Shown here piece after piece: positions 45,753 to 50,852 of a stretch of DNA of 64,000 bases. How positions within the stretch are numbered: position 1 is the first letter of the stretch; the number at the start of each line of letters is the position of its first letter. The stretch is from positions 22,252-86,251 of the IMG/VR virus record IMGVR_UViG_3300042386_001493; one strand, 5' to 3'. The notes below the pieces were generated by a model. That model saw only the letters and a program-made list of their open reading frames with translations, was not told where the DNA came from and did not search any database. Made by a program: the position numbers and the translations under genes. The stretch is from a virus. Taxonomy: Duplodnaviria > Caudoviricetes.

Positions 45753-45780
45753 ATTCCTGAGCAAGAATAAAAACTGCTCA
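45753..45780 (+). ncRNA. Conserved H-type pseudoknot motif, copy 1
   Basis: attc-ctgagcaa-gaat-aaaaac-tgctca. Confidence 0.65.
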
Positions 45781-45840
45781 AACATTTGTTCGAAAAACCC
45801 GGCGCAGGCGGCGTGTCGCAATCTATACATGACCTTTACG

Positions 45841-45915
45841 TGTGGTTAAGATCACACCCTAAATTCCCCAGATTAAGGCGTCTAATTGGATTTTGTCAGT
45901 TGTATCTGCTAGGAT
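45841..45915 (+). promoter_or_regulatory. CRP-like site plus TGTCAG-N10-TAGGAT promoter
   Basis: TGTGG ttaaga TCACA at 45841; TGTCAG ttgtatctgc TAGGAT at 45894. Confidence 0.6.
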
Positions 45916-46104
45916 AAAGATATAAAGAAAGAAGGAACAAATGGGTAAAGTAAAAGAAGCACTAATGGATATATTAGAGCATGACCTATGCTATGGCTAT
46001 GGTTGGTTATATCAAGGAAATAATGTAGACTTTGATAGTGAGGTTTGCGAGTGTAATCCTTACGCTATATCTGCTGATGAAATAATGGAATGGAAAGGAC
46101 TATA

Positions 46105-46320
46105 ATGGATAAAGAATATACTTATTCACTTACTACTTCATATGATGGAGAGTTAATAAATACCCTGCGAGTTAGCGATATGCTAGAAGCAGTTAGGGCT
46201 TGGGATAAATGCGTGGACTATGGCTTTGCTAAAGAATACGCAACCTATAACTTGTCTGACCCAACAGGTAAGATGTATACTAAAACCTTCTACACTAACG
46301 GAGAGGTCGTAATTAAATAA
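46105..46320 (+). CDS. Hypothetical protein
   Basis: GAAAGGA SD before MDKEY. Confidence 0.6.
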   Translation: MDKEYTYSLTTSYDGELINTLRVSDMLEAVRAWDKCVDYGFAKEYATYNLSDPTGKMYTKTFYTNGEVVIK

Positions 46321-46616
46321 TGGGAAGCATAACAGCAATAGGTTTAGCAGATACAACGCTAGACCTAGAAACACAATTAAAGTATCACCTGCAAGGTAAT
46401 CATTATCCACCAATACCAACAGTAATGGTTCAGCCATGTATTGAGGCTATTGACGCATACTATGAGGAGGATTATTCTCGTAGAATAGAATTACCAGTTG
46501 TAGATGGATTTCAAATTAGTTGGAAAGGCAACACTTGGACTACCGCCAGCGCATTGGTATCACACGCACACCTAGAGTGGTTCATTGAGCCAGCAGATGA
46601 GGACTTATATGAGTAA
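46320..46616 (+). CDS. Hypothetical protein
   Basis: 98 aa, HL..NHYPP.P motif; coupled by TAATG. Confidence 0.65.
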   Translation: MGSITAIGLADTTLDLETQLKYHLQGNHYPPIPTVMVQPCIEAIDAYYEEDYSRRIELPVVDGFQISWKGNTWTTASALVSHAHLEWFIEPADEDLYE

Positions 46617-46701
46617 AGACTTGCAAGATAAGTTAGACGCAGTTGCTAAAATTTTAGAACCTATCCTATGGGAAACATTAGCAGAAATTGAGGCTGAATA
46701 A

Positions 46702-46935
46702 ATGGCTGCTACAATGATGAACATGGAATTAAAGAAAATAGATATTCTCAAACCTTCTATGATGATGGTTGGAGATTTTATTAGATACAATGATGAGGTA
46801 GTTGAAATACTTTCTCTTGAATCTGATCCTGACCAATACTTTTGGTATGCAGAATATCAAAATGAGTTTGGTGAAAAAGATACCGCTCAGTTAGTTGATA
46901 ATGAATACTATGATTGGTATATTCACTTAGAATAA
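46702..46935 (+). CDS. Small acidic beta (SH3-like) protein
   Basis: VGD.I......VEI pattern. Confidence 0.5.
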   Translation: MAATMMNMELKKIDILKPSMMMVGDFIRYNDEVVEILSLESDPDQYFWYAEYQNEFGEKDTAQLVDNEYYDWYIHLE

Positions 46936-47038
46936 TTTTTCTGCACTTCCCCGCAGAAAAACCCGGCCCTGCCCGATTTGTCCGTTTTGTACCTTACGTA
47001 CACTTGATATTTTCTCCACATTCTGCTAAAATATTTAT

Positions 47039-47767
47039 ATGACAACATCACAATTAAAAAGATCATTTGACAGAAAGGTTGCTAATCTTGTCACAAAAAA
47101 TGGAAAGCAAGCCGCAATTGCAAACACGTTCGGTCTTCCCGCTGGAAAGAATTATTCATGCCCTGGTGCCACTAGTGTTTGTGAAAGTGTTTGCTACGCA
47201 GGAAAACTTGAAAAACTCTACAAAGCCGTAAAGGCAAACCTAATACATAATTGGGAATTATTAAAAGACGCTGACGAATCGACTATGATTGATCTATTGC
47301 AGAATATGATTAATGATTTTAAAAAAGATTGTGAAAAGAAAAATGCGTCATTGTTATTTCGTATTCATTGGGACGGTGATTTCTTTAATGACACGTACAC
47401 CAAAGCATGGAAACAAATCATCCTTAACAATACAGATATAAAATTCTGGGTATATACAAGGGTACAGCCTGCAGCGGTAATGCTAAAGGATATTCCTAAT
47501 CTATCCTTATACTATTCAACAGACAGCGAGAATAAGCAGATAGGCGTTAGTTTAAAGAAAGATCATGGGGTACGCCTTGCATACCTTGCACAGAATTTTG
47601 CAATAGGTCAGGCAGATATGAAGGAGTTATTTAATCGACCTGGTGCTAAGTGCCCTGAAAACCTAAAAGCCATTCCACTTATCTCAAGCGCTGGCTCGGC
47701 TTGCGTATCTTGCGGTTTGTGTGTATACTCTAAGAGCGACATAGTCTTTTCATCATCTAAGAAATAA
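47039..47767 (+). CDS. GP88-like Cys-rich (radical-SAM-related) protein
   Basis: CPGA...C...CYA, FRIHWDGDF, FWVYTR, CP.......C..C..C. Leaderless behind TTGATA-17-TAAAAT. Confidence 0.7.
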   Translation: MTTSQLKRSFDRKVANLVTKNGKQAAIANTFGLPAGKNYSCPGATSVCESVCYAGKLEKLYKAVKANLIHNWELLKDADESTMIDLLQNMINDFKKDCEKKNASLLFRIHWDGDFFNDTYTKAWKQIILNNTDIKFWVYTRVQPAAVMLKDIPNLSLYYSTDSENKQIGVSLKKDHGVRLAYLAQNFAIGQADMKELFNRPGAKCPENLKAIPLISSAGSACVSCGLCVYSKSDIVFSSSKK

Positions 47768-47840
47768 GGGGCATATGGAGATACTAATAGTATTATCACT
47801 TATATTCTTATATATCCTATTCTCAGGCATGGGGCATTAG

Positions 47841-47871
47841 TGTGATGTATCTCACATCTCAATATATGAGA
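47841..47871. promoter_or_regulatory. CRP-like palindrome abutting a TCTCA-N5-TGAGA palindrome
   Basis: TGTGA tgtatc TCACA + TCTCA atata TGAGA; the same pair recurs at 49052-49082. Confidence 0.6.
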
Positions 47872-48989: not shown

Positions 48990-49018
48990 ACTCCTGAGCA
49001 TGAGTTCTAAACTGCTCA
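48990..49018 (+). ncRNA. Conserved pseudoknot motif, copy 3
   Basis: actc-ctgagcat-gagt-tctaaac-tgctca. Confidence 0.65.
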
Positions 49019-49153
49019 TCTTTTAATTGCCCCCGCAAAAATCCGGGGCAGCGTGATTTAAATCACATCTCATTATGTGAGACTAATTAAGAACTGAACT
49101 TGCATTTCCACAATCTTGATGATATTATTGTATTAACAGAAAAGGAACCCCTA

Positions 49154-49621
49154 ATGAGCGAAGTAATGACACAGGAGCAGTTATCTGTTCCATACAATCC
49201 TAACCTACTTGTTACGTACAAGTATGTTCCAGAAACATATGCAGCACCTGAAAGCCCTACATTCATGACTGATAAGGTTACTCAGATTGAATGGGACCTA
49301 CATAACGGTCGTACTACTCAAAAACAATTAGCAGAGAGACGCTTAGATATAAGTTGGTTAGAGGAACAAATTGTAGAATGGTATGACCCTAACTATACTA
49401 AAGAAGAAGTGTTGCAAGCAATCATAGAACACTTTGGGTTTAATCCAACTAAGCAAATTGAAGTTCAAGGTACCGTATCGTTCAGCGGAACGATTAATAT
49501 TCCACTGTCAGAGATTGAAGACTTTGACCTTAGCAATGTAACAATTGATGTTGATCTAAGTTCATATGAGTATGACGCAGATCTTAATGTGGACGAAGTA
49601 TCTTTGGAGGACCACTACTAA
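49154..49621 (+). CDS. Acidic hypothetical protein
   Basis: AAAGGA SD; very Asp/Glu-rich C-terminus. Confidence 0.65.
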   Translation: MSEVMTQEQLSVPYNPNLLVTYKYVPETYAAPESPTFMTDKVTQIEWDLHNGRTTQKQLAERRLDISWLEEQIVEWYDPNYTKEEVLQAIIEHFGFNPTKQIEVQGTVSFSGTINIPLSEIEDFDLSNVTIDVDLSSYEYDADLNVDEVSLEDHY

Positions 49622-49640
49622 ATTTGATAGGGGGCTATCA

Positions 49641-49670
49641 ACGTCGTGGGCCAAGACGTAAAACTGGCCC
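49641..49670 (+). ncRNA. Conserved pseudoknot motif, copy 4 (compensatory changes)
   Basis: acgtc-gtgggccaa-gacgt-aaaac-tggccc. Confidence 0.65.
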
Positions 49671-49746
49671 TAACAAAAACCCGGCCCCGCCCTAAATGTC
49701 CGATTTGTACCAATTAAGAAGATTAAACCATTTTCCCCAATCCTAG

Positions 49747-49775
49747 TTGACATTGTCAGCCATGACTGCTAAACT
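49747..49775 (+). promoter_or_regulatory. TTGACA-17-TAAACT promoter containing TGTCAG-N10
   Basis: Read directly from sequence. Confidence 0.7.
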
Positions 49776-49801
49776 TAGTTAAAACAACCGAAAGGATAAA
49801 A

Positions 49802-50818
49802 ATGGCTCATGATTTAGAAACTCAAAATGGCGTAGCAAGTTTTGCATCATTTAGAGAGCCTGCATGGCACAATCTTGGTACTGTATTTGATACTGAGAAA
49901 AATACAAGTGAAATGCTTGTTGCTGCTAATCTTAATAATTGGAATGTTAGACTAGAGGATTTAGAAATCCCATCTAGTTTAGTATCTGACAAACAATATC
50001 AATATGTTGTTCGTACAAATCCTACTGATAAATCTCAAACTGATGTTTTGGGAATTGTTGGGCAGCGTTATGTTCCACTACAAAATGAGGATTTATTTGC
50101 CTTTGGCGATAACATTCTTGATGGTGGTGGGCGTTGGGAAACCGCTGGCTCAATTAGTGGTGGGCGTGTAGTATTTGGCTCATTAGCATTAGAGCGTGAA
50201 ACTGTATTAGACCCTAATGGCGTTGCTGATGTTGTAAAGACTTATTTACTCATCAACACTTCACATGATGGTTCAATCGCTATTCAAGCAAGCATAACAC
50301 CTGTTCGTGTTGTGTGTGCTAATACTCTTAATGTTGCACTAAACCGCACTAAGAAAAAAGATGGCGTAAAGCAATCTTTCAAAATCCGTCATACCCAAAC
50401 TGCTGAGGGCAAAATTGCTATTGCTCGTCAGGCACTAGGCATGGCTAACGCTTACATGACTGAGTTCGATAAGATGGCTCATGCTATGATAGCAAAAGAA
50501 ATCTCAGCACAAGATTTCAATAACATTATTCTTGCTGCTTATCCTAAGCCTGAATTAGATACTAAGGGCGCAGTAAAGAAATGGGAAAACAAGGTAGATA
50601 TGATTAACGATATCTATACTGGTGAATTTAACGGAATGATTGCTGGTAATGCGTGGGGTGCGTTCAATGCGCTAACTGAGCGTTTAGACTGGTATCGTTC
50701 ATCTCGTAGTGCAAATGGCGAAAGCATGTTTGCTGCTGCTTCTGGATTTGACCCTGCTACCAATGCAGAAAAAAATCGTTTGCTAAGTATTGTTCAAAAT
50801 ACTTTACAAATAGTTTAA
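49802..50818 (+). CDS. DUF932 family protein (phage/plasmid TIGR03299-like)
   Basis: MAH......AWH.LG, Y...QN, ETAG...GG..VF, YLL..TSHDGS, TPVRVVCANTL, IRHT, AWGAFNA.TE..D. Confidence 0.85.
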   Translation: MAHDLETQNGVASFASFREPAWHNLGTVFDTEKNTSEMLVAANLNNWNVRLEDLEIPSSLVSDKQYQYVVRTNPTDKSQTDVLGIVGQRYVPLQNEDLFAFGDNILDGGGRWETAGSISGGRVVFGSLALERETVLDPNGVADVVKTYLLINTSHDGSIAIQASITPVRVVCANTLNVALNRTKKKDGVKQSFKIRHTQTAEGKIAIARQALGMANAYMTEFDKMAHAMIAKEISAQDFNNIILAAYPKPELDTKGAVKKWENKVDMINDIYTGEFNGMIAGNAWGAFNALTERLDWYRSSRSANGESMFAAASGFDPATNAEKNRLLSIVQNTLQIV

Positions 50819-50823
50819 CAATA

Positions 50824-50852
50824 AAATCCTGAGCAAGATTTAAAACTGCTCA
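50824..50852 (+). ncRNA. Conserved pseudoknot motif, copy 5
   Basis: aaatc-ctgagcaa-gattt-aaaac-tgctca, ending 5 nt before the tRNA. Confidence 0.65.

What the first reader, a model, noticed from the sequence alone, without database searches (positions are those of the whole stretch)
45753..50852. Five copies of a covarying ~28-nt H-type RNA pseudoknot at 3' ends of early genes
Seen: P1-loop(ctGAGCAw)-P1'-..AAAC-TGCTCa at 45753, 48142, 48990, 49641 and 50824. P1 differs in every copy yet always pairs (attc/gaat, gtc/gac, actc/gagt, acgtc/gacgt, aaatc/gattt). In copy 4 the second stem changes on both sides (GGGCCA/TGGCCC instead of TGAGCA/TGCTCA) while AAAC-TG is kept. All copies are on the sense strand after a stop codon, some behind an extra hairpin, and none has an adjoining terminator-type U-tract. 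A degenerate sixth copy may lie at 44113-44138. Inference: structure-level selection on a small RNA or ssDNA element. It could be an exonuclease block, a processing or antitermination signal, a ligand/protein-binding module, or an antitoxin-mimic RNA (type III ToxI antitoxins are small pseudoknots). I cannot assign it to a named family.
Basis: partly seen in the sequence, partly recalled or inferred. Interest (0 to 1): 0.85.

Follow-up and report, generated by a model that had tools for sequence, protein, structure and literature searches.

The report
Phage gene-end RNA mini-pseudoknot family
The repeats are real copies of a tiny (about 28-base) knotted RNA fold that many unrelated phages place a few bases after a gene's stop codon, probably as a barrier that protects the end of that gene's message, but nobody has tested what it does.

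Summary
Four canonical copies sit at 45753, 48142, 48990 and 50824. A fifth, at 49641, has a compensatory second stem. The proposed sixth copy (44113) folds as well as a plain hairpin.

Consensus: NNNC-C-UGAGCA-W-GNNN-(N)AAAC-UGCUCA. Both stems covary in sets chosen without regard to them. No Rfam 15 family matches.

The fold is widespread:
- 75 of 80 relatives of this phage, directly after the DUF932 gene;
- contigs labelled with many bacterial phyla and Methanobrevibacter;
- a degenerate copy in cultured Lacticaseibacillus phage P7.1.

It lies on the coding strand. It starts 5-6 nt after the stop codon in 119 of 378 cases and closer in only 4. Its 3' flank is G-poor and unpaired. Downstream comes a tRNA, a U-tract, the next gene's leader or a weak terminator.

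Best reading (about 0.4): a compact roadblock that caps the upstream message. Rivals are a 5'-to-3' block like the plant-virus coremin xrRNA, a protein or ligand site, and a terminator part.

Earlier follow-ups of this scan found the same family on other DNA and pointed to coremin. I checked that lead: the architecture is shared, but two defining features fail. Function is untested.

The parts
45753..45780 (+). PK1, canonical pseudoknot. P1 ATTC/GAAT, L1 C, P2 TGAGCA/TGCTCA, L2 A, L3 AAAAAC. Starts 6 nt after the TAA (45744-45746) that ends a block of seven tightly packed small genes.
   Evidence: model R1 45.8 bits
48142..48168 (+). PK2, canonical. P1 only 3 bp (GTC/GAC), L3 GAGAAAC. The next gene's ATG (48208) lies 39 nt downstream, with no promoter-like site between.
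   Evidence: R1 41.4 bits
48125..48140 (+). 6-bp hairpin TTAGCC-TAGT-GGCTAA, 1 nt before PK2 and conserved in relatives.
   Evidence: recurrent AGCC-tagt-GGCT hairpin abutting the 5' side
48990..49018 (+). PK3, canonical. P1 ACTC/GAGT, L3 TCTAAAC. Lies 107 nt after the stop at 48880-48882 and is followed by TCTTTTAATT and a GC hairpin.
   Evidence: R1 40.6 bits
49641..49670 (+). PK4, variant. P1 ACGTC/GACGT, L1 GU, P2 GGGCCA/TGGCCC (compensatory), L3 AAAAC.
   Evidence: R1 only 7.3 bits; orthologous sites show TGGCCA, AGGCCA, GGGCCA, TGGACA and TGAGCA versions
49626..49639 (+). 5-bp hairpin GATAG-GGGG-CTATC, 1 nt before PK4 and conserved in most relatives.
50824..50852 (+). PK5, canonical. P1 AAATC/GATTT, L3 AAAAC. 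Starts 5 nt after the DUF932 gene's TAA (50816-50818) and ends 4-5 nt before tRNA-Asp.
   Evidence: R1 47.6 bits; same arrangement in 66 of 80 related loci
50857..50934 (+). tRNA-Asp (GTC) directly after PK5. RNase P cutting at its 5' end would leave the DUF932 message ending 4-5 nt past the pseudoknot (inference).
44113..44138 (+). Doubtful sixth copy: ATT-TT-TGCAGA-AAT-AAAAAC-TCTGCA, 6 nt after a tandem TAA TAA. Equally a plain 9-bp hairpin.
   Evidence: not found by R1; called a minus-strand terminator-like site
46936..46961 (+). Plain hairpin TTTTTCTGC-ACTTCCCC-GCAGAAAAA in the same gene-end slot, starting right after the TAA at 46933-46935. It shows that a simple stem-loop can take the place of the pseudoknot.
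48634..48673 (+). Stem-loop TTTGGGGG/CCCCCAAA with a -35 TTGACT in its loop and an extended -10 TG-n-TAGACT. In relatives this slot holds a pseudoknot followed directly by the next gene's leader.

Best explanation
The element is a transcribed, compact H-type RNA pseudoknot. A 3-5 bp stem 1 is closed by C-G. A one-nucleotide C loop crosses the groove of a 5-6 bp stem 2. An A-rich third loop ending in AAAC lies along stem 1. It marks the 3' end of a translated block. It sits just outside the footprint of a ribosome stopped at the stop codon, so it stays folded. There it acts as a mechanical barrier that stops 3'-to-5' degradation at the end of the coding region, once the transcript has been ended or cut downstream. 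The downstream end would be made by RNase P at an adjoining tRNA, by termination at a U-tract or nearby weak terminator, or by an unknown cut before the next cistron. Shown here: the fold, its covariation, its strand, its position relative to stop codons, and its flanks. Inferred: that it is a barrier, the direction it blocks, and the enzymes involved.
For: Structure. Stem 1 pairs at 96-98% with four pair types, in instances chosen without a stem-1 requirement. Among candidates chosen without a stem-2 requirement, 109 of 171 on the coding strand have at least 5 of 6 stem-2 pairs, against 3 of 51 on the other strand. In the two alignments 97-98% of cells pair, against 81-87% after shuffling and 24-39% when the partner is slid. 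Strand. 299 of the 300 listed model hits lie on the gene strand, and 1 of 281 unique instances lies inside an ORF of 80 aa or more. Tie to the upstream gene. 272 of 281 have a same-strand ORF ending within 300 nt upstream. The distance from stop codon to stem 1 is 5 nt in 61 and 6 nt in 58 of 378, and below 5 in only 4. The spacer often holds a second in-frame stop. A nearby 3' end is plausible in a third of cases: 57 of 430 are followed within 20 nt by a tRNA gene and 89 of 430 directly by a T-tract. 66 of 80 related loci keep the order DUF932 stop, pseudoknot, tRNA. Every instance has an upstream gene to protect, but the 89 T-tract cases have nothing useful downstream. Flank asymmetry. The 3' flank holds 1-10% G over seven positions. 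A hairpin abuts the 3' side in 32 of 430 (control site 103) and the 5' side in 117 of 430 (control 61). This is the mirror image of coremin, where a hairpin on the side away from the enzyme is required. Interchange. Plain stem-loops take the same gene-end slot in this window and in relatives. Precedent from papers: small pseudoknots of this build stall exonucleases and ribosomes (passages of PMC10520033 and PMC10321173), and a folded xrRNA stops bacterial RNase J1 in vitro (PMC5760640).
Against: There is no direct RNA-end data. The only RNA libraries holding relatives are assembled contigs, which cannot show ends. Several copies (PK1, PK4 and their orthologues) are followed by a terminator-like GC hairpin that could protect the 3' end by itself, so the pseudoknot looks redundant there. 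123 of 430 are followed within 60 nt by the next gene with no obvious way to make a 3' end. A generic barrier would not need such conserved sequence across phages of many phyla. That conservation hints at a specific partner or a specific tertiary fold. The known look-alike, coremin, blocks the opposite direction. The pile-up at 5-6 nt from the stop codon could come from genome compaction alone. The counts include related phages, so they are not independent events.
Confidence: 0.4

Rival explanations
1. It is a 5'-to-3' roadblock, a true prokaryotic counterpart of coremin-type xrRNA. The knot would stop RNase J, 5'-end-dependent RNase E scanning, Rho, or ribosomes that read through or slide after termination. 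It would thereby protect or insulate what lies downstream: the tRNA, or the next cistron's unstructured leader.
For: Architecture and signature nucleotides are shared with coremin: stem 1 closed by C-G, a one-nucleotide C loop, and a third loop ending AAAC followed by U. Coremin stalls Xrn1 and scanning ribosomes and promotes frameshifting. An xrRNA blocks bacterial RNase J1 in vitro. 57 of 430 instances precede a tRNA and 123 of 430 precede a gene within 60 nt, often through a CA-rich, G-poor leader. In relatives the knot replaces a 'stem-loop plus promoter', so that the downstream leader starts right after it.
Against: 89 of 430 are followed at once by a T-tract, and others by terminator remnants, with nothing to protect. 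The hairpin that coremin needs on its 3' side is depleted here, 32 of 430 against 103 at the control site. Spacing is tight to the upstream stop codon and looser to downstream starts. tRNAs need no 5' protection.
Confidence: 0.2
2. It is a specific binding site on nascent or mature RNA. The partner could be a phage or host protein (nut or put-like antitermination, translational repression, processing), RNA polymerase itself, or a small ligand bound at the stem junction, as in a tiny aptamer.
For: Sequence is strongly conserved in unpaired and junction positions (L1 C, closing C-G, AAAC) and in stem 2, across phages from contigs labelled with many phyla. In size and topology it recalls preQ1-I and SAM-II, and the best sub-threshold Rfam hit is SAM-II at 13 bits. 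Several copies sit just before terminator-like hairpins, as lambda nut sites do (recalled).
Against: No family model matches. Stem 2 and the 'invariant' C and U vary in orthologues without loss of the element, for example the AAAAAG-GCUCC forms. Plain hairpins take the same slot. One copy per operon end, rather than one near the promoter, is odd for processive antitermination. No co-occurring protein was identified: flanking genes fall into 243 clusters. The element does not overlap ribosome-binding sites.
Confidence: 0.15
3. It is the structured half of an unusual intrinsic terminator: stem 2 forms just ahead of a U-tract and releases the polymerase.
For: 89 of 430 instances, PK3 among them, have at least 6 T in the 10 nt after stem 2. 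The Methanobrevibacter-labelled copies are followed by TTTTTT. No ordinary + strand terminator is predicted in the region.
Against: Most instances have no U-tract. PK5 must be read through to make the tRNA 4-5 nt downstream, and PK2 to express the next gene. Stem 2 alone is weak, about -6.5 kcal/mol.
Confidence: 0.1
4. It acts at the DNA level, as a repeated boundary sequence where gene cassettes are exchanged (like the PeSL motifs of T4-type phages or integron attC sites), or as a folded single-stranded DNA site.
For: It recurs between small accessory genes, often next to promoters. The region is a mosaic among relatives. Neighbours include anti-restriction-type genes that travel on mobile elements. 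PeSL motifs are described as composite terminator/promoter repeats that mediate shuffling (abstract of PMC4122927).
Against: Alignment breakpoints between this window and 80 relatives fall at nearly every gene junction. They peak in promoter regions (49700-49799: 42; 50900-50999: 45), not at the pseudoknots (5-18 per 100-nt bin). Interleaved stems with variable spacing and strict coding-strand polarity fit RNA better than a duplex protein site. No recombinase is linked to it.
Confidence: 0.05
5. It is an RNA decoy against a host defence, for example a mimic of an antitoxin RNA, a CRISPR repeat or a nuclease substrate, made in many copies from early transcripts.
For: In this phage it lies in the early region, and elsewhere beside ArdA, ArdC-like, DUF932, DUF7249 and DUF3768 genes. 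There are several copies per genome.
Against: The copies are not tandem. There is no match to ToxI or CRISPR-repeat families above noise. It also occurs in late structural operons. Its position is tied to stop codons, which a decoy would not need.
Confidence: 0.05

Closest known systems
Coremin motif (xrRNA-C) and its Watson-Crick variant, from beny-, cucumo- and other eukaryotic RNA viruses (abstract of PMC6546385; passages of PMC10520033 and PMC10321173)
   Same: Both are very small H-type pseudoknots. Both have a short stem 1 closed by C-G, a single pyrimidine (C) as first loop, and an A-rich third loop ending AAAC and followed by U. Compare the 20-nt coremin printed, GUCCGAAGACGUUAAACUAC, with PK2, GUC-C-UGAGCAU-GAC-GAGAAAC-UGCUCA. 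Coremin acts as a protein-free mechanical block.
   Different: The loop here is 8 nt and reads C-U-G-A-G-C-A-W, so the required G at loop position 2 is absent. Stem 2 is 5-6 canonical pairs rather than 3 non-canonical or canonical ones. The obligatory hairpin directly downstream is depleted here. The hosts are DNA phages of bacteria and possibly archaea, not RNA viruses of eukaryotes. The blocked direction may be the opposite one.
Luteovirus-type -1 frameshifting pseudoknots such as that of beet western yellows virus (recalled; described in passages of PMC10321173)
   Same: About 28 nt, with a C in the first loop that inserts into the groove of stem 2 and an A-rich loop forming minor-groove triples. 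It sits 5-9 nt downstream of the codon in the ribosomal A site.
   Different: There is no slippery heptamer and no overlapping -1 frame. The upstream codon is a stop codon, often doubled. Stem 2 is longer.
MALAT1 / MEN-beta 3' end module: a triple-helix stabiliser followed by a tRNA-like structure cut by RNase P (recalled)
   Same: In the PK5 arrangement a compact triplex-type structure is followed within a few nucleotides by an RNase P substrate. Cleavage there would create a protected 3' end.
   Different: That module is a eukaryotic nuclear RNA with a different fold (a U-A-U triple helix with an A-rich tract). Here the downstream partner is a real tRNA, and only 57 of 430 instances have one.
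PeSL composite terminator/promoter motifs of T4-type phages (abstract of PMC4122927; search listing of PMC2839356)
   Same: A repeated structured element plus an early promoter lies between small accessory genes in a plastic early region. In relatives, the slot occupied here by a stem-loop with a promoter holds the pseudoknot.
   Different: PeSLs are plain stem-loops fused to promoters and are defined by their role in recombination. The pseudoknot occurs without a promoter, also within operons, and breakpoints are not enriched at it.
STAXI motif (Rfam RF01728; section read in PMC2864571)
   Same: A pseudoknot of unknown function found near anti-restriction and DNA-handling genes of mobile elements.
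   Different: STAXI is two or three tandem pseudoknot repeats with frequent UUCG tetraloops, in Enterobacteriales. Its model finds nothing here. The units here are single and separated by genes.

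Membership tests
Coremin / xrRNA-C | Short first hairpin (about 4 bp) closed by C-G, with a single C or U acting as the first loop | tested here: met
   Closing C-G in 117 of 122 instances not selected for it. 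Loop 1 is C in 80 of 142 purely structural hits, a set with an estimated 30% chance hits.
Coremin / xrRNA-C | Hairpin-loop consensus YGAD or YGNNAD, with G fixed at loop position 2 | tested here: not met
   The loop is C-U-G-A-G-C-A-W, with U at position 2. The rule is from passages of PMC10520033.
Coremin / xrRNA-C | Conserved spacer ...UUAAAC-UAC after the first hairpin | tested here: inconclusive
   AAAC-U is shared. The rest differs (UGCUCA pairs canonically with the loop), and spacer length varies from 3 to 14 nt.
Coremin / xrRNA-C | A second hairpin directly downstream, required for Xrn1 resistance | tested here: not met
   A hairpin starts within 3 nt of the 3' end in 32 of 430, against 103 of 430 at a control site 30 nt further on. 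The 3' flank is G-poor.
Coremin / xrRNA-C | Stalls a 5'-to-3' exoribonuclease in vitro | not testable with these tools
   Needs an enzyme assay.
-1 frameshift pseudoknot (luteovirus type) | Slippery heptamer 5-9 nt upstream and an overlapping -1 reading frame | tested here: not met
   The upstream codon is a stop (TAA in 216 of 304). The spacer often holds a second stop, as in TAATAAAA and TAGTAAAA.
preQ1-I riboswitch (RF00522) | Match to the family model; 5' UTR position with stem 2 covering the ribosome-binding site | tested here: not met
   No hit even at E up to 10 in 8-kb and 66-nt searches. The element follows stop codons, and its 3' arm does not overlap ribosome-binding sites.
STAXI (RF01728) | Match to the family model; two or three tandem pseudoknot units; UUCG tetraloops | tested here: not met
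   No match in the window or the whole record. Units are single and at least 650 nt apart.
Type III antitoxin RNA (ToxI-like) | Tandem array of about 36-nt repeats next to an endoribonuclease toxin gene | tested here: not met
   Copies are dispersed behind different genes, and no Rfam hit was found. A ToxN-like gene was not searched for.
Intrinsic (rho-independent) terminator | GC-rich hairpin followed at once by a U-tract | tested here: inconclusive
   The scan finds no + strand terminator at any copy. A T-rich flank is present in 89 of 430 family members, including PK3.
PeSL mobile regulatory cassette | Stem-loop fused to an early promoter, sitting at recombination junctions between related genomes | tested here: inconclusive
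   Promoter-like sites follow PK1, PK3 and PK4 at 70-150 nt. Breakpoints are not enriched at the pseudoknots.

The most novel reading that the evidence does not exclude
This is a previously undescribed, very widespread class of protein-independent RNA roadblock used by DNA phages of bacteria, and possibly of archaea, to punctuate polycistronic messages. It would be the first exoribonuclease-resistant RNA class outside eukaryotic RNA viruses. It may be a mirror-image version that stops 3'-to-5' enzymes, with its brace hairpin on the 5' side, and it would be convergent with or related to the plant-virus coremin fold.
Probability: 0.35. Interest if true: 0.85.

Novelty: new variant of a known kind. 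Interest (0 to 1): 0.72.

Why it matters
At 28 nucleotides, with both stems covarying, this would be among the smallest conserved structured RNA families known. It occurs in large numbers of uncultured phages and in prophages of distant hosts, yet no Rfam family matches it and none of the papers my searches listed describes it. If it is a mechanical barrier, RNA-structure-based control of message ends, so far a hallmark of eukaryotic RNA viruses, would extend to phages. It would also give a compact, portable part for stabilising or insulating cistrons in synthetic operons. Its placement exactly at the edge of the terminating ribosome's footprint offers a clean system for studying how ribosomes, exonucleases and small pseudoknots interact. 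If it instead binds a protein or ligand, it would be a new minimal aptamer.

Tried and rejected
Rfam. The whole window at gathering thresholds gave only the tRNA. The 8-kb region at E up to 10 gave nothing at any copy. A 66-nt search around PK1 gave only noise; the best hit was SAM-II at 13.0 bits against a 44-bit cut-off. STAXI sought in the whole record gave nothing.

Near-identical phage DNA in GenBank: none found.

RNA evidence. One search for sequencing runs and one laying of four lake metatranscriptome runs gave only short assembled contigs of relatives. These show neither ends nor strand, and I draw no conclusion on expression or ends from them.

Link to DUF932. Streptomyces phage NootNoot has a 53%-identical DUF932 gene but no pseudoknot nearby; the best model score is 6.3 bits. 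The element is therefore not tied to that gene family as such.

Acceptor-end mimicry. A tRNA-like ACCA 3' end was considered and rejected as a rule. CCA follows stem 2 in 31 of 281 and ACC in 9 of 281. That is enriched, partly through related loci, but far from general.

Readthrough or frameshifting: rejected because of tandem stops and the lack of slippery sites.

Recombination-junction role: breakpoints are not enriched at the pseudoknots.

Literature. Four sequence strings as text gave 136 papers holding at least one; all 20 listed were unrelated primers or genes. Searches on pseudoknot with phage and tRNA, on pseudoknot with exoribonuclease, mRNA stability and PNPase, and on xrRNA with bacteriophage and RNase J listed no description of this element. 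The preprint 10.64898/2026.09.22.753630 (passages) does not deal with it.

Limits of the data:
- The genome-contig scan is mixed. Of 119 matches, 34 have at least 4 and 20 have 3 contiguous stem-1 pairs. The other 65 look like chance hits, as expected for an 18-base pattern in 596 Gb.
- Host labels of metagenome-assembled genomes may be binning errors. Only the two Lactobacillaceae isolates and phage P7.1 are cultured.
- Alignment A1 was chosen by a descriptor that required both stems, L1 = C, the G after L2 and the AAC anchor. Its invariant columns are therefore partly by construction. The fair tests are.
- The P7.1 copy has only 4 of 6 stem-2 pairs.

Full report
WHAT IS THERE. The window is bases 22252-86251 of an 86,251-base IMG/VR virus record, estimated 81% complete. 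It is a tailed phage with a portal, a prohead protease, a tail tape-measure-type protein and a class II ribonucleotide reductase. Around 43.6 kb the genes turn to the + strand. From there a run of small genes follows, each short block behind a sigma-70-like promoter with an extended -10.

The stem-2 pattern occurs four times in the window, always on +, and never in 100 shuffles. It occurs nowhere else in the record. PK4 carries GGGCCA/TGGCCC in place of TGAGCA/TGCTCA, and a two-nucleotide first loop. The proposed sixth copy (44113) has only three A-U pairs in stem 1, lacks the conserved C-G pair and the C loop, is missed by the covariance model, and folds as a simple 9-bp hairpin. I treat it as doubtful.

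Nested folding finds only stem 2, at -6.2 to -10.5 kcal/mol. The case for the knot therefore rests on comparative data.

IS THE STRUCTURE REAL? I used three sets that do not presuppose the answer.

(1) Stem 1. A scan of IMG/VR for CCTGAGCA-N4-12-AAACTGCTCA fixes stem 2 but not stem 1.
- The C before the loop pairs with the G after it in 96%.
- The next two pairs outward are Watson-Crick in 98% and 96%. They use TA 64, AT 43, CG 11 and GC 52, AT 24, CG 22, TA 19.
- The fourth pair forms in 73%, plus 9% G-U. The fifth is at background.
- Shuffled partners give 26-40%, and sliding by one position gives 2-24%.

(2) Stem 2. I took 80 loci found through the neighbouring DUF932 protein, not through the motif, plus the window. 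Candidates were defined by stem 1 and AAAC only. On the coding strand 109 of 171 unique candidates have at least 5 of 6 stem-2 pairs, against 3 of 51 on the other strand. Variant arms are compensated: TAAGCA/TGCTTA, TGGACA/TGTCCA, TAGACA/TGTCTA, TGGCCA/TGGCCA, AGGCCA/TGGCCT, GGGCCA/TGGCCC, and TGAGTA/TGCTCA with G-U. The outermost pair (U-A) is often mismatched, so stem 2 is effectively 5 bp plus an optional sixth.

(3) Model search. A covariance model that encodes only stem 1 (R1) found 351 matches at E up to 1 in 946,847 bases. Of the 300 rows listed, 299 lie on the gene strand. On its best 150 hits (72 distinct), 97.1% of cells pair against 86.5% after shuffling, with 0 of 500 shuffles reaching that value, and 25-39% when the partner is slid. 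The seed alignment gives 97.8% against 81.1%, but it was selected for pairing.

The sequences are related, so these are not independent events. Even so, four pair types at single positions and compensated changes at orthologous sites are hard to explain without the fold.

CONSENSUS. NNNC / C / UGAGCA / W / GNNN / 0-9 nt + AAAC / UGCUCA, 27-31 nt in most cases. One nucleotide spanning a 6-bp stem 2, and an A-rich strand running back along a 4-5 bp stem 1, is the classical geometry of compact H-type pseudoknots (established knowledge).

WHERE IT OCCURS.
- In this phage's relatives: 75 of 80 loci have the knot within 40 nt of the DUF932 stop codon, and in 66 a tRNA gene follows within 20 nt. The median is four knots per locus of about 11 kb.
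- In the motif-based set the flanking genes fall into 243 clusters, so many unrelated phages carry it.
- In one-genome-per-species prokaryotic contigs the same pattern gave 119 matches. Of these, 54 have three or more contiguous stem-1 pairs, and the rest look like chance.
- The credible ones lie on contigs labelled Saccharibacteria, Anaerolineae, Omnitrophota, Parcubacteria, Atribacterota, Polynucleobacter, Hyphomicrobiales, two Methanobrevibacter assemblies, and two isolates (Ligilactobacillus salitolerans, Lacticaseibacillus hegangensis). Labels of assembled genomes may be wrong.
- In the two isolates the knot follows a phage minor-capsid gene (Phage_min_cap2). Cultured Lacticaseibacillus phage P7.1 has a degenerate copy in the same place, with only 4 of 6 stem-2 pairs.
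- Other neighbours are ArdA, two ArdC-N proteins, two DUF7249 and two DUF3768 proteins. This is the early or leading-region repertoire of mobile elements.
- A Streptomyces phage with a DUF932 gene has no knot near it.

CONTEXT RULES.
- Of 281 unique canonical instances, 272 have a same-strand ORF ending within 300 nt upstream, and one lies inside a long ORF.
- The gap from stop codon to the 4-bp core of stem 1 is 5 nt in 61 and 6 nt in 58 of 378, and under 5 in four. A tail follows, with a second hump at 16-19 nt. The hump fits a small hairpin inserted before the knot, as at PK2 and PK4.
- The stop is TAA in 216 of 304, and the A-rich spacer often contains a second in-frame stop.
- By established ribosome geometry, a structure beginning 5-6 nt after the A-site codon sits at the mRNA entrance. 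It is neither unwound nor hidden.
- The seven nucleotides after stem 2 hold 1-10% G, against 20% overall.
- What comes next varies. Of 430 instances, 57 have a tRNA within 20 nt, 89 have an immediate T-tract, 17 have a hairpin plus Ts, 123 have the next ORF within 60 nt (often through a CA-rich leader), and 144 have something else.
- Hairpins abut the 5' side more often than at a control site (117 against 61 of 430). They abut the 3' side less often (32 against 103).
- At orthologous slots the knot alternates with plain stem-loops. In one slot it alternates with a stem-loop that carries a promoter (48634-48673 here). Where the knot is present, the downstream leader begins right after it.
- Behind PK1, PK4 and the doubtful copy, relatives have clear A-tract, GC-hairpin, T-rich terminators. 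In this window these have decayed to AAAAACCCGGC... remnants.

HOW IT MOST LIKELY WORKS. The one constant is the end of a translated block upstream. Hence I favour (0.4) a barrier that caps that message. The 3' end is created downstream by RNase P (tRNA cases), by termination (U-tract cases), or by a cut or a leaky terminator. 3'-to-5' trimming then halts at the knot, which a terminating ribosome leaves intact. The single-stranded, G-poor 3' flank and the enriched 5' brace hairpin fit an enzyme arriving from the 3' side. These steps are inferred; none is shown.

Against this reading:
- terminator hairpins behind some copies make the knot look redundant;
- a third of the copies have no evident way to acquire a nearby 3' end;
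- the sequence conservation is greater than a mere barrier seems to need.

The main rival (0.2) is a 5'-to-3' block of the coremin kind, protecting or insulating downstream RNA. It explains the tRNA and next-gene cases but not the U-tract cases. Specific protein or ligand binding (0.15), a terminator role for the U-tract subset (0.1), a DNA-level recombination role (0.05) and an anti-defence decoy (0.05) remain open.

COMPARISON WITH KNOWN FAMILIES. No Rfam 15 model reaches even E = 10 at any copy in the regional search. In a 66-nt search the best hit is SAM-II at 13 of 44 bits. STAXI finds nothing.

Earlier follow-ups of this scan, on other genomes, had reported the same element and named coremin as the nearest relative. 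I read the sources: the abstract of PMC6546385 and passages of PMC10520033 and PMC10321173. Coremin has these parts:
- a 4-bp hairpin;
- a C or U acting as the first loop;
- a loop obeying YGAD or YGNNAD;
- a spacer UUAAAC-UAC thought to pair with the loop;
- an obligatory second hairpin.

It stalls Xrn1 and scanning ribosomes and stimulates frameshifting. An engineered and natural Watson-Crick variant has a 3-bp stem 2. The phage element shares the C-G closing pair, the C loop and AAAC-U. It fails the loop rule and the second-hairpin rule, has a longer canonical stem 2, and lives in DNA phages. It is therefore not a member as defined, though it may fold and work alike. A flaviviral xrRNA stops bacterial RNase J1 in vitro (PMC5760640), so such blocks can act on bacterial enzymes.

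Luteoviral frameshift knots share the size and the loop chemistry but not the context. PeSL motifs share the genomic role of gene-end punctuation (abstract of PMC4122927), but breakpoints here do not concentrate at the knots.

NOVELTY AND VERDICT. The searches I ran listed no published description. A large catalogue of viral candidate RNAs might include it in supplements I could not open. I rate it a new variant of a known kind: compact triplex-type pseudoknot roadblocks. It is real and very widespread, and its function is untested. The scan has met it before on other DNA, so this window adds a further well-resolved example rather than a first sighting.

Noticed in passing
window 43217-43225, 43259-43267 (+), 44174-44182, 44186-44194 (-): Four of the five exact DnaA-box consensus sites (TTATCCACA) in the 64-kb window cluster within 1 kb, at the point where leftward and rightward genes diverge. 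Relatives carry the same boxes after their gene-end structures. This may be an origin or a DnaA-responsive control region. With one mismatch allowed, the count is not above chance.
   Followed up: partly
window 48634-48673: A stem-loop (TTTGGGGG/CCCCCAAA) has a -35 TTGACT in its loop and is followed by TG-n-TAGACT. It is a composite terminator/promoter like the PeSL motifs of T4-type phages. In relatives the same slot holds the pseudoknot instead.
   Followed up: partly
window 44139-44165, 45796-45822, 46957-46990, 49674-49710: A recurrent AAAAACCCGGC...(G)TGTC(C/G) motif follows the gene-end structures. At the same places relatives have clear A-tract, GC-hairpin, T-rich terminators, so these look like weakened terminators. 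No + strand terminator is called here.
   Followed up: partly
window 47775-47840 (+): An unannotated 21-codon hydrophobic mini-ORF (MEILIVLSLIFLYILFSGMGH) lies directly after the GP88-family gene. A similar short hydrophobic frame follows that gene in most of the 42 distinct relatives listed.
   Followed up: no
window 48169-48207 and many loci (e.g. L043, L133, L137, L178): Leaders between the pseudoknot and the next start codon are CA-rich and nearly free of G (ACCAAACCACCACAAAC-type), ending in a purine-rich ribosome-binding site. They look like unstructured leaders or rut-like tracts.
   Followed up: no
L324 1855-1895 (Lacticaseibacillus phage P7.1, GenBank record): A cultured phage carries a degenerate copy (CGAC-C-TAAGCA-T-GTCG-TAAAAC-TGCTAT, 4 of 6 stem-2 pairs) between its minor-capsid-type gene and the next structural gene. 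This offers a possible experimental system.
   Followed up: partly
L233 377-402 and L274 1893-1918: Two contigs labelled Methanobrevibacter carry a canonical copy followed by TTTTTT. In L274 it lies next to a gene with ArdC-N and IrrE-like domains. If the binning is right, the element also occurs in archaeal proviruses.
   Followed up: partly
window 49802-50818: The DUF932 protein's nearest cultured relatives (up to 53.5% identity) are almost all in actinobacteriophages (Mycobacterium 198, Streptomyces 116, Microbacterium 55, Arthrobacter 50 of 543 records). The host may be a low-GC freshwater actinobacterium.
   Followed up: no
window 44000-51200: Assembled contigs from four lake-water RNA libraries match relatives of this early region at 88-99% identity, including pieces that contain the pseudoknot's 3' half. 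DNA carry-over cannot be excluded, and contigs show no ends.
   Followed up: partly
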